A stretch of DNA of 64,000 nucleotides, from assembly GCA_037190965.1 (NCBI GenBank), contig JBBCKI010000068.1, positions 1 to 64,000 of the forward strand, in the 5' to 3' direction. The position numbers were made by a program, and so were the translations under genes. The notes beneath the pieces were generated by a model. It saw only the letters and a list, made by a program, of their open reading frames with translations. It made no database searches and was not told the DNA's origin. This DNA is from Chthoniobacteraceae bacterium (GTDB lineage: Bacteria; Verrucomicrobiota; Verrucomicrobiia; Chthoniobacterales; Chthoniobacteraceae). Shown in pieces: positions 9,855 through 43,901 of the stretch. How positions within the stretch are numbered: position 1 is the stretch's first letter; each line of letters begins with the position of its first letter.

Positions 9855-10022
9855 TAGAGCATTTTCGGCTTATTCTGTCGCATGCTTTGCGGTGGCGCAG
9901 GCCGTTGCGCGGCCCTTCGAGCTTGGGCAGTATTGAAAATACAGCCGCTGCGCTCGAAAAACCGCGCAACAACCTACGGCACTCGCAAAATCATTGCGAC
10001 ATTCTAAACCGAAAAAGCTCTA
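9855..10022 (+). mobile_element. ~165-bp TA-flanked MITE-like rod-hairpin element, family B, copy 1
   Basis: TA-GAGCATTTTCGG...CCGAAAAAGCTC-TA; central GGGCAGTATTGAAAATACAGCC shared with 27635 and 43110. Confidence 0.85.
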
Positions 10023-16940: not shown

Positions 16941-18128
16941 ATGAACGACCGGTCAAAACTATACATTATCTTTCTTACGGTCTTCATTGACCTGATCGGA
17001 TTTGGCATCGTGATTCCGGTATTGCCGCTTTACGCCAAGCATTTTGGTGCTTCGGCAACGGTCAACGGCTGGCTGGTCGCGGTTTATTCCGCCGCGCAAT
17101 TTCTGGCGGCGCCGCTGATGGGAAAGATTTCCGACCGCGTGGGGCGCAAACCGGTGCTTTTCATCAGTCTGCTGGGGACGGCGGCCGGGTTCTTTATCAT
17201 GGGCTGGGCCACAACGCTATTGTGGCTGTTTGTGGCGCGGATCATTGACGGAGTGAGCGGCGGCAATATTGCGACGGCTCAAGCGTATATTGCCGATGTC
17301 ACTGCGCCGGAGGAACGCTCGAAAGCGATGGGGTTGCTCGGCGCCGCGTTTGGCCTCGGGTTTATCATTGGCCCGGCTGTGGGCGGGATCATGAGCCAGA
17401 TTTCCATCGGGGCTCCCTTTTATTTTGCGGGGGCGCTGGCTTTGTTTAACGCGGCGTTGGTTCACTACCGGTTGCCGGAGAGTCTGGCCAAGGAGCATCG
17501 CAGTTCTCCGGAGGAGAGAGCGTCGATGCGCGTGGTCCTGCAGCATGGCTCCCATCTCCCCGCGTTGATGGCGGCCTATTTTTTCGCGATCACCGGCTTT
17601 TCCATCCTCACCACCAACTTCGCGCTGTTTACTTCCGAGCGGTTCGGATTCGACCAGGTGCATAATGGATACATTTTCTCTTTTATCGGCGCCGTTGGGG
17701 TCATCATGCAGGGGCTGGTGCTTCGTCACGCCCTCAAGCGAGGAAGCGAGAAGAGCATTGCGCTCACGGGTGGCCTTCTTCTTGCGCTGGGAATGGCACT
17801 TCTGCCGTTGAGCGGCGGTCTGGCTGGGTTGCTGGTGTTTACCGCCCTTATCGGCATCGGCAACAGTTTCATCACTCCCACCTTGAATGGCCTCGCTTCC
17901 CGGAGCGCAGACCGGAGCTGGCAGGGGCGGGTGGTCGGGTTGATGCAGTCGGCAGGAAGCCTCGGGAGATTCGTCGGCCCTTTTGTCGGCGGCTGGCTGC
18001 TTTCAAAAGATCCCGCGACTTCTTCTGCCTACGGGCGCACGCCGTTCTGGATAGGCTCTGCTATTCTCGTGATTGCGGTGTTCTGTATCATGCGGCTGCC
18101 GGCTCTCCCAAAAACGGCGGAACAGTAG
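16941..18128 (+). CDS. MFS transporter, TetA/DHA1-like
   Basis: D.IGFGIVIPVLP, GKISDRVGRKPV motif A and GFIIGPAVGG motif C; about 12 TM segments. Confidence 0.92.
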   Translation: MNDRSKLYIIFLTVFIDLIGFGIVIPVLPLYAKHFGASATVNGWLVAVYSAAQFLAAPLMGKISDRVGRKPVLFISLLGTAAGFFIMGWATTLLWLFVARIIDGVSGGNIATAQAYIADVTAPEERSKAMGLLGAAFGLGFIIGPAVGGIMSQISIGAPFYFAGALALFNAALVHYRLPESLAKEHRSSPEERASMRVVLQHGSHLPALMAAYFFAITGFSILTTNFALFTSERFGFDQVHNGYIFSFIGAVGVIMQGLVLRHALKRGSEKSIALTGGLLLALGMALLPLSGGLAGLLVFTALIGIGNSFITPTLNGLASRSADRSWQGRVVGLMQSAGSLGRFVGPFVGGWLLSKDPATSSAYGRTPFWIGSAILVIAVFCIMRLPALPKTAEQ

Positions 18129-27637: not shown

Positions 27638-27801
27638 AGCGGTTTTGAATTTCCTATTTACATTCTTTGCGGCGGCGCGGGCCGTTGCGCGGCCTTTCAA
27701 GCTCGGGCAGTATTGGAAATACAGCCGCTTCGCTTGAAAAGCCGCGCACCAACCCACGGCGCTCGCAAATAATTGTGAATACTTAACTCAAAAACGCTCT
27801 A
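27635..27801 (+). mobile_element. Family B element, copy 2, on the stop codon of the nucleotidyltransferase gene
   Basis: TA-GAGCGGTTTTGA...TCAAAAACGCTC-TA; the TAG stop is the target TA plus the first G of the element. Confidence 0.85.
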
Positions 27802-32456: not shown

Positions 32457-32539
32457 GGCGTCGCGGAGCTCCGCCCTCCGTGAGAAGGAATACGCGGCAT
32501 AGCAAACCCCAACAGCGGAGGGCGGAGCTCCGCGACGCC
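32457..32539. repeat. REP doublet, family D, copy 1
   Basis: Perfect 24-bp inverted repeat GGCGTCGCGGAGCTCCGCCCTCCG / CGGAGGGCGGAGCTCCGCGACGCC between convergent genes. Confidence 0.85.
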
Positions 32540-33943: not shown

Positions 33944-34091
33944 GGTAGTCCGCTCTCGCCGAGAGCGCGGGATATGACGAGAATGCGCGTTTGGCGCCCA
34001 TCCCCCGGAAGGATTGTTGGTGCGGTTGGGATGCGGCTTCAAGAGAAGCACGGGAGCCGATACGCGCGCTCGGCGGCCGGTGCTGCCGCAC
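33944..34091 (+). repeat. Family A REPIN, copy 3 (right REP partly deleted)
   Basis: GGTAGTCCGCTCTCGCCGAGAGCGCGGG..GTTGGGATGCGGCTT..GGAGCCGATAC..CCGGTGCTGCCGCAC. Confidence 0.82.
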
Positions 34092-34113
34092 CGTTTGTCA
34101 GGGAAGTAGCGGC

Positions 34114-34389
34114 CTATTTCCGCCGCACCCGGTCTTTCTTTTCCTCGCTCTCTTCCTGAATGCGCCGCAGTTCCGCCGCGAGCTGCTTTTCGATGGAGGC
34201 CACTTCGTCAAACTGGCCGCGCGCCCGAGCTTTTGCGATCTGTTCGCCGAGGAAAAGCTCCTTTTCCGCGACTCGCGACTTGGCGATGCTTTCGATCTCG
34301 GCGATTTCCGCCTTCTGCGCTTCGGTGAGCTTTTGCGTCGGAGCCTGTTTTTCCAAACGTTCCATGGCGAGTTCGTAAGCGGATTTCAT
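34114..34389 (-). CDS. Small helical hypothetical protein (MKSAYELAMERL type)
   Basis: 91-aa charged helical ORF with host-like codon use. Confidence 0.75.
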   Translation of the reverse strand: MKSAYELAMERLEKQAPTQKLTEAQKAEIAEIESIAKSRVAEKELFLGEQIAKARARGQFDEVASIEKQLAAELRRIQEESEEKKDRVRRK

Positions 34390-34468
34390 GGTTGCGATTA
34401 TCCGTCGTCCGCGTCCGGCAATCAATCGCTTTGCGCAGGCGCGCCATTGAAGGTACACTCTCGGCGAC

Positions 34469-35281
34469 ATGATTCGCCTTCTCAGCACCGATTTTGACGG
34501 AACGCTCGTTGACCACGACGCCTCGCCCGCTGTTTCGCCCGCTTTATATGAAACGCTGGCGCAATTGCGGCGTTGCGGCGTCTCCTGGGCGGTCAACACG
34601 GGGCGCGATCTCAACTTCATCCTTCAGGGCTTGAACGATTTCGAGTTCCCGATCGAGCCCGACTATATCCTGACCAACGAACGGGAGATTTTCCACCGGA
34701 ATAGCCAGGGCGAATGGCAGGATTACGGCGACTGGAACCGGCGTTGCGTCGAAGCCCATGACACGTTGTTCGAGTCAGAGAGCGGACTGCTCCGGGAAGT
34801 GCTCCGGTTTGCCGAGACGGAGATCAACGCGAAGACGATCTACGAAAAGAACCGGCCTGTGGGGTTGGTTGGCGATGGAGACGCCGATATCGACCGTTTT
34901 ATCGGTTTTCTCCATGAGCAACGCTCCCGGGATTCGCTCTTCCATTACCAGCGTAACACGATCTTCCTTCGGTTTTGTCATGCCCACTATTCCAAGGGAA
35001 GCGCGCTGGGGGAGCTATGCCGCCTGACCGGCATTTCGGAGCACGAGACTTTCTCGATGGGCGACCATCATAACGACCTCTCCATGCTCGATGGGCGTTT
35101 TGCCCGCTGGCCCGCCGCCCCGGGCAACGCCATTGACGAGGTCAAAGCCACCGTGAAAAACGCCGGGGGCTACATCGCCCAGGGCCGTTGCAGCGAGGGG
35201 GTCTTGGAGGCGTTGCAGCATTTCTTCGATACGCACTCGCTGGCTCCCGCGGGATTTCAGGGATTTACAAAATCCGCCTAA
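34469..35281 (+). CDS. HAD-superfamily hydrolase, subfamily IIB
   Basis: DFDGTL, NTGR, SKGSAL and GDHHNDLSML. Confidence 0.9.
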   Translation: MIRLLSTDFDGTLVDHDASPAVSPALYETLAQLRRCGVSWAVNTGRDLNFILQGLNDFEFPIEPDYILTNEREIFHRNSQGEWQDYGDWNRRCVEAHDTLFESESGLLREVLRFAETEINAKTIYEKNRPVGLVGDGDADIDRFIGFLHEQRSRDSLFHYQRNTIFLRFCHAHYSKGSALGELCRLTGISEHETFSMGDHHNDLSMLDGRFARWPAAPGNAIDEVKATVKNAGGYIAQGRCSEGVLEALQHFFDTHSLAPAGFQGFTKSA

Positions 35282-35319
35282 AAGCCTCTTCCATCGCCCG
35301 CTCCATCAGGAGCGTGGCG
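35265..35319 (-). repeat. Displaced copy of the hscA-like gene 3' end (att-like direct repeat)
   Basis: 35284-35319 matches 41283-41318 at 35/36 nt; translates as ATLLMERAMEEAFRRIL* versus ATLLMERAMEEALRRKGIL*. Confidence 0.92.
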
Positions 35320-35327
35320 CCCGCGAC

Positions 35328-36062
35328 CTAGAAACTCAAACCGCCGCTCCAAAAGGAATTTTGCGAGGTCATCTTCCGAATCTCCGAACGGGGAACCGCG
35401 CTGACGTGGCCGTCCATATAAACGACATTCAGATGATCGCCATGCGCGTAAAACGTATCCTGCTTGTTGGTGAAGGTGCTTGGAGCGATGGTGGAAGGAT
35501 ATGAGACCTCGTTTGGGGTGATGTTTGGCTTTACCCCATCCATAAACATGGCCATTTGAGCCGGTTGTGGAATGCCGGCGATCGGCGGGCTAAGGAAGAT
35601 GCTGGGCTCCGAAGGGGCGCCATCATCAAGAAACTCGCCCGTCCCTTTTGCATAGGTATTAAGGCAATAGCTCTGCCAGGTGCCGATTGCCTTGTTGTGT
35701 TTGCGCCGATCTGCCGGACACCAGGCAACCTCTGTTGGGGAGGTCGTCCTCTTCCATTCAGCAAGGTAATCAAGAAGGCTGCCTCTCACCGAGTAGGTGC
35801 CTTGTGTTCCCGACCGAAGCCGACCATTGGGTTGCTTCCAGTCGGCACTGGGCATTGATCCACGATGGTCGTAAGCGTAACGGAGGGCGGACTCGCCAAG
35901 TTTTTTGAGCTTGTTGATGCAGGATGCATTGTCCCCCATGTCAACGACACCCTGGTAAGCGGGGATCGCCAGAAGCGCCAACGAAGCGAGGATCACCATC
36001 GCAATCAAGACTTCCGCCAGCGAGAAGGCCAGGGATGATGAAGGGGGAGGCGTGCGGTTCAT
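35328..36062 (-). CDS. Prepilin-type N-terminal cleavage / H-X9-DG domain protein
   Basis: A|FSLAEVLIAMVILASLALLAIP class III signal with E5; C-terminal HGDHLNVVYMDGHV (H-X9-DG). Confidence 0.9.
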   Translation of the reverse strand: MNRTPPPSSSLAFSLAEVLIAMVILASLALLAIPAYQGVVDMGDNASCINKLKKLGESALRYAYDHRGSMPSADWKQPNGRLRSGTQGTYSVRGSLLDYLAEWKRTTSPTEVAWCPADRRKHNKAIGTWQSYCLNTYAKGTGEFLDDGAPSEPSIFLSPPIAGIPQPAQMAMFMDGVKPNITPNEVSYPSTIAPSTFTNKQDTFYAHGDHLNVVYMDGHVSAVPRSEIRKMTSQNSFWSGGLSF

Positions 36063-36072
36063 ATCGGAGTAA

Positions 36073-39027
36073 TTATTTTTGAGGGAGGCTTATAGCATCG
36101 ACGAGGTACTTCCCGCTCAGCAGCTTAACATAGGCGGCTCCCTCCGGGAGGGTTTCCCAGATTGCCGGGCCATCCTGGGCGAGCTTTCGATCAAGGGGAG
36201 CCCCCTCGGCATTGCAGAGGACAACCGTTGTGGCGGAAGTTTCCGATGGGAAGAGGACTTTAACCCCATCACCAGCCGATTGCACAGCCAAGGCGCGGGG
36301 AAGACGGGCGACCACGGCAACCCGCTTTGGTGAGACCTTCAAGACGAGCCCTTTTTCAGCCACGGGTAGTTCCACACCGTTGAGCAGATCGAAGTAATGA
36401 TGTGATGCCGTTTCTTGCGCGGGCATGGCCGGGCCTTCGATTGGCTTTTCACGGTCATTCAGCAGCACGGTGATGGTTTTGCGACCGGTAGCAAATCGGT
36501 TTGCATAGAGGTAGTCCTGCAAGGTGGACACCAGGGGTTCCACCTGCGTTGAGCGAAAGGCGTCTGCGTTCTCGCGCAGGATACGGTGATAATTCTCGGG
36601 CCAAGGCCGCTGAAACAGCCCCACGCCATTCCAGAGCATGATCTCATGATAGGCCTTGCTCGGGAATGAGTGCGATGAGGTTACATTCTCGAAAAGCGTG
36701 ACTCCCGGGAAATAGAAACGGAAGATGTTGAGCGGCAATGGGCGGAAGCCGGGGATTGCCCAGCGCATTTCATGCAGAAGAGCGCCGTCAAGTTCTCCCG
36801 CGAGGAAGTCGCACCCTGCGTACTCGCCGGTGAGCAGAATGTCCGGCTTTTTGGCGCTGCAGGCGGCCCTGACCTTTAACATCAGGGCTTTCATGGACCT
36901 CATGACGGCATGCTCGCCAGGCTCGGCAAACTGGTGCGTGTGTTCTTTGCTATAGCAGACAAACCCTGTATAGCCAAACTGATCGAGCCGAATGCCATCC
37001 ACTTGGGTATCTCCCACAAGACGGGCCATATTATTCGCGTAGGCTTGTTGATAATCCTCATTATCCGTGCACATGCTCCATTTGGCATACGTAATGAGGT
37101 GATCGCCCTTCGGGGTTTCAGGAAGCGGGCCCGGCGTGTGCTGAACGTGAGGATTAACGACACTATGCTTTCGTCCGTAGTTTTTCCCCATTTCGGTCGT
37201 GCTATCCACAATGAACGGATCGGTGTAGAATTGCACCAGGGCACCGGCTTCGTGTGCGGTGGCGATGCCTTTCTTCAATCCCTCAAGGCCTTCCATGCTG
37301 GTATTATAAGCATAGTCTCCATCGTTGACGGCGTTGACGAGCTTTCCTCTCACCGGGTCATCCATGAAGAAGTAGTTCCACTTGTTGTGCATCTGGCGGA
37401 GGGTTTCCTCTCGGCCCTGATCCAGGGAAACTCCAAAGGGGCCCTTTTCGGACCACTCCCACCAGTGGCGGAATTCGCCCATGTCGATCCCGTCCTCACG
37501 ATAGCCGCCGTACCACTCCTTGGTTTCGAAATTGTAGAGCCGCTTCTGAACCTGCGGTTCCGAAGGCAGGCTGGCGGTGATGGTCTGGATCAACCAAACA
37601 TCCCTGATGGCCGTGTCGGGCGAGCGCCACTTCCATACCGAATGAGCCCACTTTGCATAGGTGCTCATGGCCGCCTTCCAGTCGCCGGGGTGGATCTCAA
37701 TCACCGCGTCGGGATACTTGAATCGGCCGCCGGTCTCCCGCGTGTGGCGCTGGTATTCGAATCCCATCGCGCTTCCTTTGCCCGGTGTCAGGCTCTGTTT
37801 CCAGAGCATTCCTTTTTCAAGGCGATTTCCAAGATCGGTGACGGCCCTTGCAAAAGCGGGATGCTTCACTCCTTTTCGGAAGGCGATCCCCTTCAGAAGC
37901 CCCCCTTCGTCGAGGGAGCGCATCGAGATCCCGCTTCCCTTTCCAGGAGAGTAGACATCGACCATCTGCCACATCGCCTCATTGGCCGCATAGAACAGGC
38001 GGAGATCGGTATTTACCTTTTGAACAATGCCGCCCCGGAATGGGTAGCAATAGTAATCGTCATCTGGGTTATCGGAAACGCTGATGCCGCCGATCTGCGG
38101 AAACACCGTCTTCCACGAATGCTCCTTTCCTGAGATATTCACCATCTCCAAGCCAAGACGCAAGTGCTCCGCAGTCACCGTCGCAGTAAAGCTGGCCTCC
38201 AGCCCGCCACCCTCCAGCAGCACTTCGGCGGAATCGCCCTTGATGCGCGTTTCCTTGACCACCCAGTCTCTGGCTGTCACCGTGCGCCCATCGCCCGTGT
38301 CGACAAGGAAGAGGCCGGTTTTTGAGGGATCGAGAAGAATATCCTTCCCTGCAAACTCATCAAAAAGCGAGACAAGGCGCAATCCTCCCTTCGTGGAAAA
38401 CACCGCCTTGAGCGCCGGATTGGAGAGGGTGAATCCGTTCTCTGTTTTCTCAATTTCCGGGGCGCGCCCGGCGGGCGAGTTGGCCGGTTTTGAGATTGCG
38501 GGGGCCATGTTTACCGGCGTTCCCGTATCGGCGAGTTCGAAGAACACCTGCGCCTCCGTGACCGGCTGAGATGGATCAAAGCGAATCAAAAAATGACGGA
38601 GCGCCTGGGCCTCGCTGCGTCCCGAGAGCTTCAGGGAGACACCCTCAAATTTATGAAACTCTATTTCTCCCGGCCGTTCTTCAACAAAGGCTCCCCCCTT
38701 TTGAAGCTCAACGACAATCTTCTTCCCCTGAACATCAAAAGCTTCAACCACGACGGCATCGGTGTTTTTGGTCAGCAGATGAAGACGCACGGGCTTCTGC
38801 GGATCGAATCGTCCACCGTCCAAGACGATCTTCAGTTCGGACTTTCCAAGAAGCCTCCCGTCTTCAACCACCCGTGTCGGGTTTTTGTTTACGCCGGTGA
38901 GTTCACCGGTGCGTCGCCATGTTGAGGATTGTTCTGCGAAGGAGGGAGTCGTCAGGGCGAGCAACGGAAAGGTTGCGCAGGCAATCAGGCGGGTGGAGAG
39001 TGAACGTTGGGAAGGCATGGGGAACAA
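36073..39027 (-). CDS. Secreted putative glycoside hydrolase (DUF6259-like TIM barrel)
   Basis: Signal peptide; GALVQFYTDP, WSMC, VDGIRLDQFG and LLTGEY motifs typical of GH-like barrels; family assigned by recognition only. Confidence 0.65.
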   Translation of the reverse strand: MFPMPSQRSLSTRLIACATFPLLALTTPSFAEQSSTWRRTGELTGVNKNPTRVVEDGRLLGKSELKIVLDGGRFDPQKPVRLHLLTKNTDAVVVEAFDVQGKKIVVELQKGGAFVEERPGEIEFHKFEGVSLKLSGRSEAQALRHFLIRFDPSQPVTEAQVFFELADTGTPVNMAPAISKPANSPAGRAPEIEKTENGFTLSNPALKAVFSTKGGLRLVSLFDEFAGKDILLDPSKTGLFLVDTGDGRTVTARDWVVKETRIKGDSAEVLLEGGGLEASFTATVTAEHLRLGLEMVNISGKEHSWKTVFPQIGGISVSDNPDDDYYCYPFRGGIVQKVNTDLRLFYAANEAMWQMVDVYSPGKGSGISMRSLDEGGLLKGIAFRKGVKHPAFARAVTDLGNRLEKGMLWKQSLTPGKGSAMGFEYQRHTRETGGRFKYPDAVIEIHPGDWKAAMSTYAKWAHSVWKWRSPDTAIRDVWLIQTITASLPSEPQVQKRLYNFETKEWYGGYREDGIDMGEFRHWWEWSEKGPFGVSLDQGREETLRQMHNKWNYFFMDDPVRGKLVNAVNDGDYAYNTSMEGLEGLKKGIATAHEAGALVQFYTDPFIVDSTTEMGKNYGRKHSVVNPHVQHTPGPLPETPKGDHLITYAKWSMCTDNEDYQQAYANNMARLVGDTQVDGIRLDQFGYTGFVCYSKEHTHQFAEPGEHAVMRSMKALMLKVRAACSAKKPDILLTGEYAGCDFLAGELDGALLHEMRWAIPGFRPLPLNIFRFYFPGVTLFENVTSSHSFPSKAYHEIMLWNGVGLFQRPWPENYHRILRENADAFRSTQVEPLVSTLQDYLYANRFATGRKTITVLLNDREKPIEGPAMPAQETASHHYFDLLNGVELPVAEKGLVLKVSPKRVAVVARLPRALAVQSAGDGVKVLFPSETSATTVVLCNAEGAPLDRKLAQDGPAIWETLPEGAAYVKLLSGKYLVDAISLPQK

Positions 39028-39063
39028 TGAGCGATGAACAGGGAGAGGACTTTGTCAGGCGAT

Positions 39064-39873
39064 CTACTTAAGCTTTCGCCGCAAGAGGAGACCGGCAATG
39101 CCAGCGGGCAATAGAAGGGCCGCAGTGGCCGGCTCCGGGATGGCTTCGAGCTGGAAGCTATCATACCCCACGGTTCTATCAGCGGAACGGAAGTTGGTTC
39201 TCAAGCCCGTGACCCCGCTGGTATAGCTGCTGTCCGTCACATTGATGGAAGTGATCAGATTTCCATTGCTGGTGCTAAATAGTGATGCGGTCAACTGGTC
39301 CCCCACAAACTCGAACTCAAGGCGGTAATAGTTGGTGCTGCTGACACTGATCGTACTGGATGCGGCAATGATATAGCTTCCCACATCGGTAAACTGGATG
39401 TTCTTGGAGATAACAAGCCGAACGCCCGAGGCATCGCGCAAAATTCCCGCAAAATAGCCGTCAGGAGTCCCGCCGTCCGCCGAGGGGGTTTGAACGCGCG
39501 CCATGATCCCCATGGATTGATTGTTATTGGAGATGAATTGAACCACGGAGGTCACTTTTCCATCACTAACCTGGGAACCGCTTCCCTGATAGTATGCCAT
39601 GGTAAACTGGCTGCTTGTCGCCCCGACGGGGTTGGCCATTTGGAGCACTCCGTTTCCAGTGAGAGAAAGCGTCGTTGGCGTAGCGGTGCCTGATCGTTTG
39701 ATGGTCCAGTCCGCATAAGTGGAACCTGAGCCAGGGAAGGCGCCTGCCGTCCCATTAAAGTCGGTTTGGTAGACGACGGCAGCTTCCGCGGGCGCGACTG
39801 CGAAGAAGAGAATCGCTGCAATGGTGTTGACTATCGATAGAGCGCCGAGGGGAAGGAAGGGAGTGGTTCTCAT
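39064..39873 (-). CDS. PEP-CTERM sorting-domain protein with beta-sandwich (lectin-like) domain
   Basis: Signal peptide; C-terminal IPEPATAALLLPAGIAGLLLRRKLK; Ser/Thr-rich beta strands. Confidence 0.92.
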   Translation of the reverse strand: MRTTPFLPLGALSIVNTIAAILFFAVAPAEAAVVYQTDFNGTAGAFPGSGSTYADWTIKRSGTATPTTLSLTGNGVLQMANPVGATSSQFTMAYYQGSGSQVSDGKVTSVVQFISNNNQSMGIMARVQTPSADGGTPDGYFAGILRDASGVRLVISKNIQFTDVGSYIIAASSTISVSSTNYYRLEFEFVGDQLTASLFSTSNGNLITSINVTDSSYTSGVTGLRTNFRSADRTVGYDSFQLEAIPEPATAALLLPAGIAGLLLRRKLK

Positions 39874-39887
39874 GGGGGTGGGAGTAA

Positions 39888-41042
39888 TTAGGGGGTGATT
39901 TGCGGGGACGGATTGTTTTTTCGAGTGCGTTTTTCGGAAGGTGCGGGAAAGCCCGTGGGAGTTTTTCCGACGCTCTCCCGGCGGATCAACTGAGCGTTGA
40001 CGTAAATATCGCCAGATCTCTCATTCCGGTTAATCTGACGGAGCATGATGTCGAAAGCGCTCTGCGCGATTTCTTTGGAATCATATTCCACTGCTGTCAG
40101 CGGGAAGCCACCGGCATCTCCGGCGCCAAGAATCCCGATGCTTACGATGGAAATATCCTCCGGGTAGCGGAGTCCTCTTGCGCGGCCCATCGATAACAAA
40201 TGCCATGCGACGCGGTTATTGCTGGTAATGACGGCGCTGCCTCTCTCCGGCCAGTCGAGGTAAGAAGTGATGTAGCGCTCGAACAACCTCTTGTCCTCTG
40301 TCGGAGAGAGTCCGAATCGAGCCGCCAGATCCCGCGCGTCTGTCGTCTCGTGCCGAGGCGAAAATATCCGCACGTCCAGTTCCGCATTGCACGGCTCACT
40401 GCGGTCGAGCAGCGCTGCGTAGCGCCCGGCCGTTGCCGAATTGTCGAAGTGGGGGTGCAGAATGTCGATGCGGCGGTGGCCCATTCGCATCAACTCGTCG
40501 CGCGCCAGCATGCACTCCTGCTTGCGATCTTTGATGATTCTACCCGCAAGCGTGGACAGCCCGTTGCCGCCCAACTCGGAGAGAAGAACCAACGGCATCT
40601 TCATTCCTGCCAGCCACTGCTGCATTTCAGCTCCTTCGTAGCTGCTCCGGGCCGGGTAGAGCATGATCCCGTCAACCCGCGACTCCGCCAGCCATCTCAA
40701 GGCCTTGTCTTCTCCGTCCGGAGACCAGCGGTGGAACTGGAAGAGAAGCTGATAGCCCCGGTCGGACGCCACCTGGTTCAGTTCGTCCAGAATGGCTGCG
40801 TAATAAGGATCGATGGCGATCGGCATCACGACGCCCAGCACCCCGGTGCGCCCGAGCGAAAGTGACTTCGCCAACTGGTTGGGCACATAGCCAAGATTTC
40901 GGGCGATCTCCTTGATCCGGGTTCGCGTGCTTTCAGGCAAGCGGGAGCTGTCGTTGAGAGCCATGGATACTGTGGCTACCGTACAGTTCGCCTTGGCGGC
41001 AATTTCGCGAAACCGAACAGGTTTGGAGGAAGGGGAGGGCAT
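39888..41042 (-). CDS. LacI-family transcriptional regulator
   Basis: FREIAAKANCTVATVSMALN HTH, LGYVPNQLAKSL hinge, RVDGI, PEDISIV and LIRRESV. Confidence 0.95.
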   Translation of the reverse strand: MPSPSSKPVRFREIAAKANCTVATVSMALNDSSRLPESTRTRIKEIARNLGYVPNQLAKSLSLGRTGVLGVVMPIAIDPYYAAILDELNQVASDRGYQLLFQFHRWSPDGEDKALRWLAESRVDGIMLYPARSSYEGAEMQQWLAGMKMPLVLLSELGGNGLSTLAGRIIKDRKQECMLARDELMRMGHRRIDILHPHFDNSATAGRYAALLDRSEPCNAELDVRIFSPRHETTDARDLAARFGLSPTEDKRLFERYITSYLDWPERGSAVITSNNRVAWHLLSMGRARGLRYPEDISIVSIGILGAGDAGGFPLTAVEYDSKEIAQSAFDIMLRQINRNERSGDIYVNAQLIRRESVGKTPTGFPAPSEKRTRKNNPSPQITP

Positions 41043-41054
41043 GGAATACGCTGC

Positions 41055-41083
41055 TTTACCGGTTAAATAGCTTAACCGGTTAA
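41055..41083. promoter_or_regulatory. Tandem LacI-type operators
   Basis: TTTACCGGTTAA (41055-41066) and TTAACCGGTTAA (41072-41083); CG-centred palindromes just upstream of the LacI start. Confidence 0.75.
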
Positions 41084-41147
41084 ACTAAGCAAGAATAAAT
41101 TGGACGGACATACAAGCTGAGGTTCAGGTGTGAGCCAAAAAGACTGG

Positions 41148-41183
41148 AATCAGCCCCTCCGATGATCGATTTGGGGGCTGATT
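41148..41183 (-). terminator. Hairpin downstream of the hscA-like gene, possible terminator
   Basis: AATCAGCCCC ... GGGGCTGATT; T-run a few nt downstream on the minus strand. Confidence 0.45.
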
Positions 41184-41257
41184 GAAAGGAGTCGCTCCGC
41201 GTTTGGCAGGCACCGGTCAGGCGCGCCAACGTGCTTTCTTTCCGCAATCCGTAATTC

Positions 41258-43069
41258 CTACAAAATCCCCTTACGCCTGAGCGCCTCCTCCATCGCCCGC
41301 TCCATCAGGAGCGTGGCGAGGTTCTGGGTCGCTTCATCGAGAGCGGCGGTCGCTTTTTTGAGGGCGTGCGGGTTTTCGCCAGTCAGCGCGGTTTCCACTT
41401 CCGCCATCAACACGGCGATGCGTTGCCGCTCTTCTCCGTCCACTTCGTCCCCCAGCAACGTGAGCGCGTTGCGGACCGCGGGGAGCATTTCGGCGGCTTT
41501 CAGGCGCGCCTCGGTAAAGACGCGCTCGGTCATGTCCTCAAAGGCGTGATCGAGCGATTCGGCGATCATCTGTTCCACCGCCTCGTCGGAGACATCCACG
41601 GCGCTTCGCATCTCGACCACCCGTTCCGCTCCCGTTTTTGTATCGCGAGCCAGCACGTGAAGAATCCCGTCGGCGTCGATTTCAAACTGCACCCCCACCC
41701 GCGCCTGCCCTTTCGCGGCGGGTTCGAAACCGAGTTCGAACTGACCGAGTTCCCAGTTGTCCCGGGCCATCTCGCGTTCCCCCTGCAACACGCGGATCAA
41801 CACGGAGCGTTGCCCCGCCACGGCGTTGGTGAACATTTCGCCCGCCTTGGTGGGGATGGTGGAGTTGCGCGGGATGATGACATTCATCAACCCGCCAAAG
41901 GTTTCGATGCCCAGCGAAAGGGGGGTAACATCCAGTAGCACCACGTTGCGCACCGCCCCGGAGAGAATGCCTGCCTGGATGGCCGCGCCGAGGGCCACCG
42001 CCTCGTCGGGGTTTTGCGAAAGGTTCGGCTCGCGCCCGAAAATCTCCGCCACGAACCGTCGCACCAGCGGCATGCGTGTCTGGCCGCCCACCAGAATCAC
42101 CTCATTGAGATCGCGCGCTTCCAGCTTCGCGTCGGCCAGCGCGCGGATGCAGTGGGCGCGGGTCCGTTCGATCACGGGCCGGGCAAGCCGCTCCAGTTCC
42201 TCGCGGGTGATGACGCAGGAGAAACTGCGGCCTTCGACGAGGAACGGCAGCTCGATGGTCGCTTCGGGTTCCGTCGAAAGACGGTGCTTGGCTTCCACCG
42301 CCGCTTCCCGCACGCGGGAGAGCGCCTCCACGGGGAGGGGAGCGTCGATTTTTTCCACCAGCCACGTTGTCAGAGCGTCGTCGATGTCGTCTCCGCCGAG
42401 GCGGGTATTGCCATGGGTGGAGAGCACCTGAAACACGCCGCCCGACAGTTCCAGAATCGAGAGGTCGAACGTGCCTCCGCCGAGATCGAAGACGGCCACC
42501 CTGGCATGCTCGCCGAGCTTGTCCGCGCCGTAGGCAAGAGCCGCCGCCGTCGGTTCGTTGAGGATCCGCTCCACCGTCAGCCCCGCCAGTTCGCCCGCCT
42601 TTTTGGTGGCATGGCGCTGGGCATCGTTGAAGTAGGCGGGGACGGTTACCACCGCCCGGGTGATCCCGCATTCGAGCGCGGCTTCCGCGTCGCGTTTCAG
42701 TTTGGCGAGGATCAGCGAGGAGATTTCCTCGGGAGAATAGTCATGGCCGTCGACCGCTACGCGAACCGGGGTGCCGGGCTGGCCCGTCAGGGCATAGGAA
42801 ACGCCGGTGGAATCCAGATCCTCGCCCACCCGCCGCCCCATGAAGCGTTTGATGGAATAGACCGTCTCAGTAGGGGCCAGAACCCGCATCCGGCTCGCCG
42901 CGCTTCCCACGAGCGGCTCTCCATGTTCACTGGGAAAGTGAACCACCGAAGGCGTCAGGCGCTTGCCATCGCGATCCGCTAGTAGAATAGGGAAACCGGC
43001 GTCCATCACGCCGATGAGCGAGTTGGTGGTGCCGAGATCGATGCCGACGATGGGATCCAGAGAGTCCAT
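41258..43069 (-). CDS. hscA: Hsp70-family chaperone (HscA/DnaK-like)
   Basis: GIDLGTTNS, TVPAYFND, NEPTAAALAYG, DLGGGTFD and DVTPLSLGIET; follows an HscB-like gene. Confidence 0.88.
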   Translation of the reverse strand: MDSLDPIVGIDLGTTNSLIGVMDAGFPILLADRDGKRLTPSVVHFPSEHGEPLVGSAASRMRVLAPTETVYSIKRFMGRRVGEDLDSTGVSYALTGQPGTPVRVAVDGHDYSPEEISSLILAKLKRDAEAALECGITRAVVTVPAYFNDAQRHATKKAGELAGLTVERILNEPTAAALAYGADKLGEHARVAVFDLGGGTFDLSILELSGGVFQVLSTHGNTRLGGDDIDDALTTWLVEKIDAPLPVEALSRVREAAVEAKHRLSTEPEATIELPFLVEGRSFSCVITREELERLARPVIERTRAHCIRALADAKLEARDLNEVILVGGQTRMPLVRRFVAEIFGREPNLSQNPDEAVALGAAIQAGILSGAVRNVVLLDVTPLSLGIETFGGLMNVIIPRNSTIPTKAGEMFTNAVAGQRSVLIRVLQGEREMARDNWELGQFELGFEPAAKGQARVGVQFEIDADGILHVLARDTKTGAERVVEMRSAVDVSDEAVEQMIAESLDHAFEDMTERVFTEARLKAAEMLPAVRNALTLLGDEVDGEERQRIAVLMAEVETALTGENPHALKKATAALDEATQNLATLLMERAMEEALRRKGIL

Positions 43070-43109: not shown

Positions 43110-43279
43110 TAAAGCGTTTTTGAGTTAGATGTTTACAGAGGATTTGCGAGCACCGCAGTTCGATGGGAGGCTTTTCGAGCGCAGTGGCTGTATTTTCAAT
43201 ACTGCCCAAGCTCGAAATGCTTCATAGCGGACTGTGCTGCCGCAAAGCCTTTGTAAACAGGAACTCAAAACCACTTTTA
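43110..43279 (-). mobile_element. Family B element, copy 3 (reverse orientation), at the stop codon of the hscB-like gene
   Basis: Reverse complement contains TTCGAGCTTGGGCAGTATTGAAAATACAGCC..GCGCTCGAAAA and ends TAACTCAAAAACGCTTTA. Confidence 0.82.
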
Positions 43280-43861
43280 ACTCTCGATTTGCAGCCGAAC
43301 CAGCCCTTCGCGGATCTGCGCGCTCCATTTATCGAGGTAGCCAAGCGCCTGCGCGGTCTCCGCGACTTGTGAAACGGGCCGCTCTGCTTCGCCGCTCGTC
43401 CAGGCTGCATCCAGCGCGGGAATGCGTTCCAGCCACCGCCCCCGTTCCGCCTCCAGCACTGCCAGCAGCGCCTCAAGGTCCTCCTGGAGCGTGTATTGTT
43501 CGGCTAACAACAACGCCTTCGCGAGCGCCGACCCGGCGGCGGTCCGCTTTTTCAGAAAACCGTCGAGTGCTTGTTTTTTGGCCCCCATTTCCAGAAAAAG
43601 CTCGCCCACCGAAGGCGGAGCCGCCACGCCCCGGAACGGCTCTTCGGGCGCTTCCAGTTCCAACAGGTGACGAAGCCGTGCGCGCGGATTGTTTAACACC
43701 CCGTAGGCCACGGTCAGCGCGGCGAAGGGGGGCGATCCGGCATCCGTTCCCGCCACGTCGGGGTGATGCTCCGCCGTCAAGGCGTGGAATCGGGCTTTCA
43801 GCGCCTCTTCTTCGAGCCATGGACGGCGCGGCTCCCCCAGCAAGGCAAAATGATCAGTCAT
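43277..43861 (-). CDS. hscB: HscB-like J-domain co-chaperone
   Basis: DHFALLG..R, HPD and AYGVL.NPRARLRHLL; helical C-terminal domain. Confidence 0.8.
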   Translation of the reverse strand: MTDHFALLGEPRRPWLEEEALKARFHALTAEHHPDVAGTDAGSPPFAALTVAYGVLNNPRARLRHLLELEAPEEPFRGVAAPPSVGELFLEMGAKKQALDGFLKKRTAAGSALAKALLLAEQYTLQEDLEALLAVLEAERGRWLERIPALDAAWTSGEAERPVSQVAETAQALGYLDKWSAQIREGLVRLQIES

Positions 43862-43901
43862 TCCGGGAACCGTGCCGTGAAAGCCAAAAAGCGGCAACTT
43901 A

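What the first reader, a model, noticed from the sequence alone, without database searches (positions are those of the whole stretch)
35265..41318. 6-kb island integrated into the 3' end of an Hsp70 (hscA-like) gene, with the displaced gene end still in frame and no integrase
Seen: 35284-35319 and 41283-41318 form a 36-bp direct repeat (one synonymous mismatch, 30 bp perfect) 5999 bp apart. The right copy is coding sequence of the Hsp70 C-terminus. The left copy continues in frame to a stop (ATLLMERAMEEAFRRIL* versus ATLLMERAMEEALRRKGIL*) and overlaps the end of the convergent HAD gene. Established: this is the attL/attR geometry of site-specific integration that regenerates the target gene; usual targets are tRNA/tmRNA genes or a few protein genes. 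Inference: an hscA-type 3' end serves as attB, which I do not recognise as a described site. The element either lost its recombinase or is mobilised in trans.
Basis: partly seen in the sequence, partly recalled or inferred. Interest (0 to 1): 0.85.

Follow-up and report, generated by a model that had tools for sequence, protein, structure and literature searches.

The report
Orphaned Hsp70 gene end beside inserted operon
A soil verrucomicrobial genome carries a spare copy of the last 18 codons of a chaperone gene 6 kb from the real gene end; it looks like the scar of an old recombination that put an ordinary sugar-regulated operon there, not like a self-mobile island.

Summary
The last 61 nt of an Hsp70-paralog gene (41258-41318) recur as a 55-nt orphan at 35265-35319. 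The two share a 30-nt identical stretch, an in-frame 6-nt gap and a stop at the same place. These are the only two copies in the 4.2-Mb genome, and independent contigs bridge both junctions.

The 5,938 bp between them hold four tightly packed genes: a LacI regulator, a PEP-CTERM-like protein, a 984-aa DUF6259 protein and a pseudopilin-like protein. There is no recombinase and no room for a decayed one.

The segment does not look foreign. Its composition is ordinary for this genome. The same four-gene block sits between housekeeping genes in two genus relatives, without repeats or integrases.

No relative shows an empty HAD/Hsp70 junction, another cargo, or an integrase at this gene end. Gene order is scrambled even within the genus, so the key comparison could not be made.

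Best reading (0.5): a recombination scar from homology-anchored insertion of related DNA that carried a fresh Hsp70 end plus the operon. Site-specific integration by an integrase acting in trans stays possible (0.2). A second orphan Hsp70 end in another genus hints at recurrence, but three other genes in this genome have similar orphan ends. Interest is low to moderate.

The parts
41258..43069 (-). Hsp70-family gene, 603 aa. It is a second paralogue, 47% identical to the canonical DnaK on contig C28.
   Evidence: PF00012 608.7 bits. NCBIfam DnaK NF001413 664.7 bits against cut-off 648; both HscA models fall below their cut-offs. An orthologue is found in 40 of 41 genomes searched; the second paralogue sits at G000:C28.
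41258..41318 (-). Right copy of the repeat: the working 3' end of the Hsp70 gene (ATLLMERAMEEALRRKGIL*, stop TAG).
   Evidence: Its ending matches all 4 genus relatives, which end A-L-(R/Q)-R-(K/R)-G-x-x.
35265..35319 (-). Left copy: an orphan 3' end (ATLLMERAMEEAFRRIL*, stop TAA). It has a 6-nt in-frame gap, four substitutions and a different stop codon compared with the right copy.
   Evidence: the genome search detects it as a 20-codon open frame, E 0.097. It overlaps the HAD gene end by 17 nt.
35290..35319 (.). 30-nt stretch identical to 41289-41318. It contains the inverted repeat CGCTCC-4 nt-GGAGCG.
   Evidence: exactly 2 copies in the genome. The inverted repeat was read.
35320..41257 (-). 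The 5,938-nt segment between the two copies. It holds four genes on the - strand separated by gaps of 10, 36 and 14 nt, with 8 nt at the left edge and 215 nt at the right edge.
   Evidence: ORFs. (GC 56.3%, ordinary tetranucleotide use).
39888..41042 (-). LacI-family regulator, 384 aa.
   Evidence: PF00356 and PF13377; NCBIfam LacI-type models, all below equivalog cut-offs. Homologues of 47-51% identity lead the same block in G002 and G003.
41055..41086 (.). Two operator-like palindromes (TTAACCGGTTAA at 41072-41083; TTTACCGGTTAA at 41055-41066) upstream of the LacI gene.
   Evidence: 27 nt (41060-41086) are identical to the stretch upstream of the G003 LacI homologue. The operator role is inferred.
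41137..41182 (-). Hairpin with a 10-bp G+C-rich outer stem, followed by UCCAGUCUUUUU, 76 nt after the Hsp70 stop. It is a likely terminator of the Hsp70 gene and lies inside the segment.
   Evidence: Fold; coordinates. The simple terminator scan did not flag it, so the role is inferred.
39064..39873 (-). 269-aa protein with a weak PEP-CTERM motif at its C-terminus.
   Evidence: PF07589 E 0.0035, below cut-off. Homologues in G002, G003 and G001.
36073..39027 (-). 984-aa DUF6259 protein, with a weak match to glycosyl-hydrolase-like GHL15.
   Evidence: PF19773 44.5 bits. Restricted to the genus.
35328..36062 (-). 244-aa protein with a weak prepilin-type N-terminal methylation motif. Its TAG stop is in the same frame as the orphan gene end.
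   Evidence: PF07963 E 0.0075, below cut-off. Frame checked. Relatives of 26-28% identity in metagenome contigs.
34469..35281 (+). HAD-IIB (Cof-type) phosphatase gene, convergent with the orphan end. It forms the left flank.
   Evidence: PF08282 and TIGR01484. Found in 143 of 151 family genomes.
43277..43897 (-). 206-aa J-domain protein just upstream of the Hsp70 gene, its likely co-chaperone.
   Evidence: PF00226 23.1 bits, below cut-off. Weak DnaJ and HscB matches, all below cut-off. Also adjacent to the Hsp70 orthologue in G004 and G008.

Best explanation
The left copy is the orphaned end of an Hsp70-paralogue allele. It marks one edge of a past recombination that placed an ordinary LacI-regulated four-gene operon between this chaperone gene and the HAD gene.

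Proposed route (inferred). DNA from a related strain or species carried the Hsp70 3' end, its terminator hairpin and the operon behind it. This DNA recombined with the chromosome using homology in the Hsp70 gene. This could have happened in two ways. A circularised fragment could have crossed over once through the 30-nt identical stretch. Alternatively, one end could have been anchored by homology in the gene while the other end was joined without homology 55 nt before the resident stop codon.

In both cases the working gene end now comes from the incoming DNA, and the resident end is left behind as a 55-nt fragment next to HAD. The segment encodes nothing for its own movement and is probably fixed.

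Shown: the anatomy, the uniqueness of the repeat, the absence of any recombinase, the native composition, and the genus-wide presence of the operon at other loci. Inferred: the donor, the direction of the event and the enzymes involved.
For: 1. The two copies look like two alleles of one gene end, not a plain duplication. Homology ends exactly at the stop codon. The reading frame survives a 6-nt gap. Two of the four substitutions are synonymous and both copies keep a stop.

2. The right copy and its first bases downstream look native to the genus. All 4 genus relatives end A-L-(R/Q)-R-(K/R)-G-x-x, and none of the 29 relatives' ends reads like the left copy. The 9-mer CGGATTGCG follows the gene end in both G000 and G004.

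3. The right flank is anchored in the genus. The J-domain gene is adjacent in G004 and G008. An 81%-identical AcrB gene lies about 4 kb from the Hsp70 gene in G005.

4. The segment is not foreign. GC is at the 13th percentile of 2,557 windows, and 38% of 668 windows have an equal or larger tetranucleotide distance. The 984-aa gene is in 4 of the 5 other genus genomes and 0 of 145 others. The full four-gene block occurs in G002 and G003 with a 27-nt identical operator region. There it is flanked by LpxK and GHMP-kinase genes on one side and GDSL-lipase and PLD genes on the other (G002), or by a ComEC-like protein (named from its sequence, not scanned against Pfam) and a PLP-enzyme gene (G003). 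No mobility genes are present.

5. There is no recombinase in the segment and no space for a relic of one; the gaps are 8, 10, 36, 14 and 215 nt.

6. Orphan gene ends are not special to this gene. Of 2,879 ORFs of 150 aa or more in this genome, 24 gave an orphan-like second hit. 13 of those 24 are multi-copy repeats. On inspection of 9 of the remaining 11, three besides Hsp70 look like real orphan ends: C1:1868-3268, C32:25982-29134 and C71:40260-41078.

7. True tRNA-borne islands in this same genome keep their integrase next to a perfect att repeat, unlike this locus. Examples are C34 (46-nt repeat, integrase match at C34:2125-2517) and C4 (36-nt repeat, integrase match at C4:66244-66771).
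Against: No donor arrangement was found. In none of the four genus relatives that carry the 984-aa gene does it lie next to the Hsp70 orthologue.

No strain-level relative was available. A metagenome scan with the 244-aa protein gave only matches that are 24-60% identical over their best segment, the higher figures on 33-40-residue stretches. The first genome-contig scan found no relative.

A 30-nt perfect stretch followed by 31 nt with five substitutions and a gap is also what an att core plus a diverged arm would look like.

A second orphan Hsp70 end in another genus (G085, 79 nt, 87% identical to its own gene end) could mean that this gene end is hit repeatedly.

The left copy's ending (AFRRIL*) is unlike any of the 29 relatives' endings. 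So 'resident allele' requires either an odd allele or decay after the event.

The similarity to G004 downstream of the stop is short, and a run of N follows it.
Confidence: 0.5

Rival explanations
1. Site-specific integration. The segment is a recombinase-less element of the CIME kind. A tyrosine integrase encoded elsewhere put it into an attB in the Hsp70 3' end. The element carries a mimic of the gene end that restores the reading frame.
For: The attL/attR-like geometry with a regenerated, in-frame gene end. A 30-nt identical core that holds an inverted repeat of 6-nt arms. The genome has 8 PF00589 matches over the cut-off and 2 resolvase matches over the cut-off, any of which could in principle act in trans. 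A second orphan Hsp70 end exists in G085, a different genus. Passages read in PMC5704250 state that integrative mobilizable elements often target the 3' ends of housekeeping protein genes, and that CIMEs keep attL and attR after losing their integration genes.
Against: No recombinase in the segment or among the ORFs scanned between about 20 and 57 kb of the window, and none on contig C68. No non-coding space for a decayed one.

The cargo is an operon typical of the genus, with native composition. In G002 and G003 it sits without meaningful flanking repeats; only a 23-nt, 78% pair inside neighbouring genes brackets it in G002.

Of 73 ORFs within 9 kb downstream of the Hsp70 orthologue in 10 relatives, none matches an integrase family; there is one rve transposase 6 kb away in G002.

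Among the 150 integrase matches listed out of 307 in 41 genomes, the nearest to an orthologue is 20 kb upstream, in G022.

No second gene-end copy was found in those 10 loci, nor in the 4 orthologue loci among the 5 loci hit by the back-translated pattern.

No hits for the back-translated gene end in viral contigs. No match of the 984-aa protein in plasmids, and none of the 6.2-kb segment in phages.

No recombinase family among the 14 ORFs within 9 kb of the G085 orphan.
Confidence: 0.2
2. An internal rearrangement scar. A segmental duplication that included the Hsp70 gene, or an inversion or translocation with a breakpoint 55 nt before its stop, was followed by deletion. Only the last 18 codons of one copy were left next to HAD. 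No incoming DNA was needed.
For: Gene order is heavily scrambled in this family. Around HAD, only the divergent 168-aa ORF is shared with relatives. Around the Hsp70 gene, only the J-domain gene is shared. Three other genes in this genome have orphan 3' ends. The G085 orphan lies on a different contig from its gene.
Against: This route needs at least two events. A break placed at random would not end the homology exactly at the stop codon. All six differences lie in the distal 31 nt and none in the proximal 30 nt; if decay were uniform and the events independent, the chance would be (31/61)^6, about 0.02 (my arithmetic). Only one full copy of this paralogue remains in the genome.
Confidence: 0.2
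3. An assembly chimera. Two strains were joined at the shared 30-36 nt.
For: The genome is a 73-contig assembly from a metagenome. One Logan contig ends at 41359, close to the right copy.
Against: Contigs of an independent assembly bridge both junctions with 0 differences. The left junction is also bridged in a second sample. Depth is flat across the flanks and the segment, at 9.9-12.4 in run X1. The exact repeat is only 30 nt long.
Confidence: 0.03

Closest known systems
CIMEs (cis-mobilizable elements) and integrative mobilizable elements that target the 3' ends of housekeeping protein genes, as reviewed in PMC5704250 (passages read)
   Same: Direct repeats flank the segment, one of them being the working end of the target gene. 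The gene is not disrupted. The segment has no integration or transfer genes.
   Different: No cognate integrase-bearing element was found at this site in any genome searched. The cargo is a native-looking operon that lies without repeats elsewhere in the genus. No excision product was seen. The repeat is only 30 nt identical and then diverges.
Phage 21 and the e14 element in the icd gene of E. coli
   Same: Integration into the 3' end of a protein gene. The element supplies a diverged substitute gene end, and the original end is displaced to the far side.
   Different: Those elements encode their own integrase next to the att site. Here there is none.
Homology-facilitated illegitimate recombination, and Campbell-type single-crossover insertion, during uptake of related DNA
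   Same: One homologous anchor in a conserved gene, extra genes carried in behind it, and no element-encoded enzyme required. The result is a fixed, non-mobile insertion.
   Different: The donor was not observed. The classic cases were made in the laboratory. The usual outcome is described as replacement rather than a retained 55-nt remnant, so the fit is by mechanism only.
tRNA-borne genomic islands in this same genome (C34 and C4)
   Same: Direct repeats made from the 3' part of the target gene, 37 kb and 7.4 kb apart.
   Different: Their repeats are perfect over 46 and 36 nt, the targets are tRNA genes, and a PF00589 integrase lies right beside one repeat.

Membership tests
Integrative element (genomic island, IME or ICE) inserted by its own tyrosine or serine recombinase | Direct repeats at both ends, one of them being the 3' end of the target gene | tested here: met
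Integrative element (genomic island, IME or ICE) inserted by its own tyrosine or serine recombinase | Integrase gene inside the element, usually next to one att site | tested here: not met
   The four ORFs of the segment match no recombinase family. There is no PF00589 or PF00239 match on contig C68.
Integrative element (genomic island, IME or ICE) inserted by its own tyrosine or serine recombinase | Present in some relatives and absent in others at the same site (an empty attB exists) | tested here: inconclusive
   HAD and the Hsp70 gene are not neighbours in any of the 4 genus relatives that carry both, and gene order is scrambled. No strain-level relative was found.
Integrative element (genomic island, IME or ICE) inserted by its own tyrosine or serine recombinase | Composition or gene content foreign to the host | tested here: not met
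   GC and tetranucleotide use are ordinary. The operon is typical of the genus.
Integrative element (genomic island, IME or ICE) inserted by its own tyrosine or serine recombinase | Excision: empty-site and circle junctions detectable | tested here: inconclusive
   No such joint appears in contigs of 3 runs. Contigs drop rare variants, and raw reads were not available.
[quoted passage not shown] | att sites retained, no integration or transfer genes | tested here: met
   This is geometry only.
[quoted passage not shown] | A related autonomous element whose integrase uses the same att site | tested here: not met
   None was found downstream of the orthologue in 10 relatives, among the integrase matches listed for 41 genomes, in viral contigs, or in plasmid and phage records. 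This means not found in what was searched; it does not prove absence.
   TIGR01991 618.7 bits against 708.55. NF003520 602.7 against 620. The DnaK model NF001413 scores 664.7 against 648 and passes.
   The upstream J-domain protein hits DnaJ and HscB models only weakly, all far below their cut-offs. No Fe-S assembly family was seen among the neighbours scanned.
Hsp70 family | Full-length PF00012 match | tested here: met
   608.7 bits, residues 7-588.

The most novel reading that the evidence does not exclude
The 3' end of this Hsp70 paralogue is a recurrent landing site in Chthoniobacteraceae. Operon-sized cassettes without a recombinase are inserted there by an enzyme supplied in trans, each time bringing a substitute gene end. 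The orphan ends in two genera (G000 and G085) would be the footprints.
Probability: 0.12. Interest if true: 0.6.

Novelty: new member of a known kind. Interest (0 to 1): 0.25.

Why it matters
If this is only a scar, it is a neat dated footprint. It shows how a catabolic operon typical of the genus moves between chromosomal sites in a poorly studied soil lineage, with a conserved chaperone gene serving as the homologous handle. It also warns that att-like repeats without an integrase should not be read as mobile elements by default.

If the gene end turns out to be a true attachment site used in trans, it would add a chaperone gene to the list of protein-gene attB sites. It would also give an example of operon-sized cassettes without a recombinase in Verrucomicrobiota.

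Tried and rejected
1. Dispersed repeat: rejected. The core occurs exactly twice in the genome.

2. Chance match: rejected.

3. Empty-site comparison: not possible. Of 26 window proteins compared with 18 relatives' loci, only Hsp70, the J-domain protein, HAD and the ORF divergent from HAD matched. Neighbours of HAD in 8 relatives map to many different G000 contigs.

4. Closer relatives. The first genome-contig scan, with the 984-aa protein, found 18 pattern hits but no relative. The metagenome scan with the 244-aa protein gave 47 loci, all distant (24-60% identity over the best segment).

5. Back-translated gene-end pattern. Viral contigs gave 0 hits. Genome contigs gave 5 loci with one match each; four are Hsp70 orthologues and one has only an 11-residue match.

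6. A 16-nt match of the core upstream of the G003 cassette turned out to lie inside a ComEC-like ORF, in the motif MERAM. It is a coincidence.

7. Mosaic test of the Hsp70 gene against G004 and G005: identity varies with conservation and shows no clear break.

8. Read laying. No contig joins 35320 to 41319, and there is no circle joint. Run X3 holds fragments of the operon genes with about 10% differing letters, but it has almost no depth at either junction. Contigs cannot show rare forms. An X3 joint from 43474 to 40491 (depth 3.1) was seen only in the table of extra letters and was not interpretable.

9. Second matches of the 40-aa gene end in the family. G142 and G113 are further Hsp70 genes cut by contig ends. 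G118's lie in frames of 551-655 aa and were not inspected. G049 and G078 are weak (E 0.09 and 0.36) and were not inspected.

10. Rfam and tRNA scans found nothing at the junctions.

11. Earlier notes of this scan: nothing for this place or sequence.

12. Literature. A full-text search for phrases such as 'end of dnaK', 'integrated into dnaK', 'end of hscA' and 'downstream of hscA' returned 16 papers. Judged from the 15 listed titles and abstracts, none concerns integration. This does not prove that the site is undescribed.

Full report
**Observation**

The repeat exists as described. The repeat finder reports 35275-35319 and 41274-41318 as a 45-nt pair, 41 of 45 identical, 5999 nt apart.

On the - strand both copies read in frame to a stop. 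The right copy...ATLLMERAMEEALRRKGIL*, is the true end of a 603-aa Hsp70 gene (41258-43069). The left copy reads ...ATLLMERAMEEAFRRIL*. The differences are four substitutions (two of them synonymous), one in-frame 6-nt gap, and TAG against TAA. All lie in the distal 31 nt.

Homology stops exactly at the stop codon on one side and sharply at 35319|35320 = 41318|41319 on the other.

The core occurs only twice in the 4.2-Mb genome. A 35-mer with up to 3 mismatches never matches in 100 shuffles.

An independent assembly bridges both junctions with 0 differences: X1 contigs 33944-38042 and 38020-41359. A second sample (X2, contig 35283-35505) bridges the left junction. Depth is flat at 9.9-12.4 across flanks and segment. 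X1 may be the source sample, so it is not fully independent.

**What lies there**

All genes below are on the - strand, in this order:
- a J-domain protein (43277-43897);
- the Hsp70 paralogue;
- 215 nt that hold a hairpin plus U-run (41137-41182, not flagged by the simple scan) and two operator-like palindromes (41055-41086);
- a LacI regulator (39888-41042);
- a 269-aa protein with a weak PEP-CTERM motif;
- a 984-aa DUF6259 protein;
- a 244-aa protein with a weak prepilin-type N-terminus.

Eight nucleotides after the last stop the orphan gene end begins. It overlaps by 17 nt the end of a convergent HAD-IIB phosphatase gene (34469-35281). The gaps inside the segment are 10, 36 and 14 nt, so there is no room for a decayed recombinase.

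The Hsp70 protein passes NCBIfam's DnaK model and fails both HscA models. It is a second paralogue, 47% identical to the canonical DnaK on contig C28, and is conserved in 40 of 41 genomes searched. Record titles of two same-genus contigs place the organism in Chthoniobacteraceae, Verrucomicrobiota.

**Is the segment a foreign island?**

No. Its GC content (56.3%) is at the 13th percentile of 2,557 genome windows of the same length. Its tetranucleotide distance from the genome (0.153) equals the mean (0.155); 38% of 668 windows are as far or farther.

The 984-aa gene is found in 4 of the 5 other genomes of the genus and in 0 of 145 other genomes of the family.

In G002 and G003 all four genes form the same block at 47-56% amino-acid identity. 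G001 and G005 have parts of it. The stretch upstream of the LacI gene shares 27 identical nucleotides between G000 and G003.

In G002 the block lies between LpxK and GHMP-kinase genes on one side and GDSL-lipase and PLD genes on the other. In G003 it lies between a ComEC-like protein (judged from its sequence) and a PLP-enzyme gene. No mobility genes are present. The only bracketing repeat is a 23-nt, 78% pair inside neighbouring genes.

The 984-aa protein has no match in plasmid records, and the 6.2-kb segment has none in phage records.

**Is this gene end an attachment site?**

I found no support beyond the geometry.
- Contig C68 carries no PF00589 or PF00239 match. The genome has 8 and 2 such matches over the cut-offs on other contigs.
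- In 10 relatives, none of 73 ORFs within 9 kb downstream of the orthologue matches an integrase family. Each genome has a different downstream neighbour.
- Of 307 integrase matches in 41 genomes, 150 were listed. The nearest to an orthologue is 20 kb upstream, in G022.
- No second copy of the gene end occurs in those 10 loci.
- A back-translated pattern of the gene end has 0 hits in viral contigs. In the species-representative genomes it has 5 single hits, four of them orthologues.
- No contig in three runs joins across the segment. Contigs cannot show rare forms.

By contrast, two classical islands in this same genome have perfect tRNA-derived repeats of 46 and 36 nt with an integrase beside them.

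HAD is conserved in 143 of 151 family genomes, but in the four genus relatives that carry both genes it lies on another contig, or 628 kb from the Hsp70 gene. Synteny around both genes is almost nil. Two collection scans found no strain-level relative.

**A second case, and a control**

I searched the 40-residue gene end in 151 family genomes. This recovered G000's orphan as a positive control (E 0.097) and flagged six other genomes with two or more matches.

One of these is a true orphan. G085, a different genus, has 79 nt that are 87% identical to the end of its own Hsp70 gene, on another contig. No other part of the gene is there, and no recombinase family is among the 14 neighbouring ORFs. 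G142 and G113 are extra genes cut by contig ends. G118, G049 and G078 were not inspected.

As a control I compared the last 240 nt of all 2,879 ORFs of 150 aa or more in G000 with the genome. 24 ORFs had an orphan-like second hit. 13 of those are multi-copy repeats. I inspected 9 of the other 11; C42 and one C48 ORF were not inspected. Three besides Hsp70 look like real orphan ends.

That is roughly one gene in a thousand. At that rate, one further Hsp70 orphan among 150 genomes is not surprising: about 0.2 expected by my arithmetic. The sensitivity of the search in distant genomes is low.

**Reading**

Homology ends at the stop codon, the frame is kept and synonymous changes are present. This says the two copies are two alleles of one gene end set in different downstream contexts. 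A plain target duplication or a template-switch copy would not give that.

The right copy is of the genus type: all 4 genus relatives end A-L-(R/Q)-R-(K/R)-G-x-x. A 9-mer just after its stop also follows the gene end in G004 (a run of N after it limits the comparison). The upstream side of the gene is anchored in the genus.

I therefore read the locus as a recombination scar. Related DNA carrying an Hsp70 end, its hairpin and the operon recombined through homology in the gene, and the resident end was left behind next to HAD. This could have been a single crossover of a circular fragment in the 30-nt identical stretch. It could also have been one homologous anchor plus an end-join 55 nt before the resident stop. 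Confidence is 0.5.

An integrase acting in trans (a CIME-like element; PMC5704250, passages read) remains possible at 0.2. A purely internal duplication-deletion or translocation scar stands at 0.2. An assembly chimera stands at 0.03.

The clustering of all six differences in the distal half fits an att core. It fits equally well the higher variability of the last ten codons among orthologues, so it does not decide between the readings.

**Novelty**

This is a known kind of structure, a gene-end duplication flanking inserted DNA, at a gene not found in my one literature search (listings only). With no sign of mobility, it is ordinary to mildly interesting.

Noticed in passing
G085:C102:70438-70524 (L142:9439-9525): A second orphan Hsp70 3' end in another genus of the family. 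It is 79 nt long and 87% identical to the end of that genome's own Hsp70 gene on contig C37. Nothing else of the gene is nearby, and no recombinase family is among the 14 ORFs within 9 kb.
   Followed up: partly
G000 contigs C1:59-176 vs C1:1868-1986; C32:25403-25458 vs C32:25982-26037; C54:579-647 vs C71:41009-41078: Three other genes of this genome have orphan-like copies of their last 56-119 nt: a sugar-transferase-like tail, a Cys-rich tail and a sigma-factor-like tail. The C32 and C54 copies end at the stop codon, as the Hsp70 orphan does. The gene labels are read from the tail peptides only.
   Followed up: partly
G000 contig C14:9463-9634 and 17598-17770: A 173-nt direct repeat (166 of 173 identical) 8.1 kb apart. 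It brackets ordinary genes (Gly-zipper protein, Ig-like protein, YkuD, MFS, methyltransferase, 2-hydroxyacid dehydrogenase) with no integrase. The right copy lies about 400 nt upstream of rplT. No Rfam family matches.
   Followed up: partly
G000 contigs C34:1271-1316 / 38728-38773 and C4:65541-65576 / 72961-72996: Two classical islands (37 kb and 7.4 kb). Each is flanked by perfect 46- and 36-nt repeats that look like tRNA 3' parts, with a PF00589 integrase match beside one repeat.
   Followed up: no
window 35328-35330 with 35265-35327: The TAG stop of the 244-aa gene is in the same frame as the orphan gene end. Read-through would add 20 residues (VAGATLLMERAMEEAFRRIL). The chance of a shared frame is one in three.
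   Followed up: no
window 32457-32539; 43143-43217; 27671-27769; 9891-9996: Copies of dispersed repeat families of this genome. One is a perfect 24-nt inverted repeat just after the SbcC-like gene. Another is a roughly 100-nt element, one copy of which lies between the J-domain gene and the Hsp70 start. These probably explain the depth spikes at 33.7-34.2 kb and 43.7-44.2 kb in the laid runs.
   Followed up: no
L031 (G004:C27), just after the Hsp70 orthologue: In the closest relative the reading frame has no stop at the orthologous place. It runs on into a short tandem-repeat-like stretch (GCGCGGATT units) that is partly given as N.
   Followed up: no
L032 (G005:C41), downstream of the Hsp70 orthologue: In G005 a different carbohydrate-type cluster follows the gene: an AraC regulator, an FAD oxidoreductase and two DUF4838/GH2-like proteins. 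The region behind this chaperone gene is variable across the genus.
   Followed up: no
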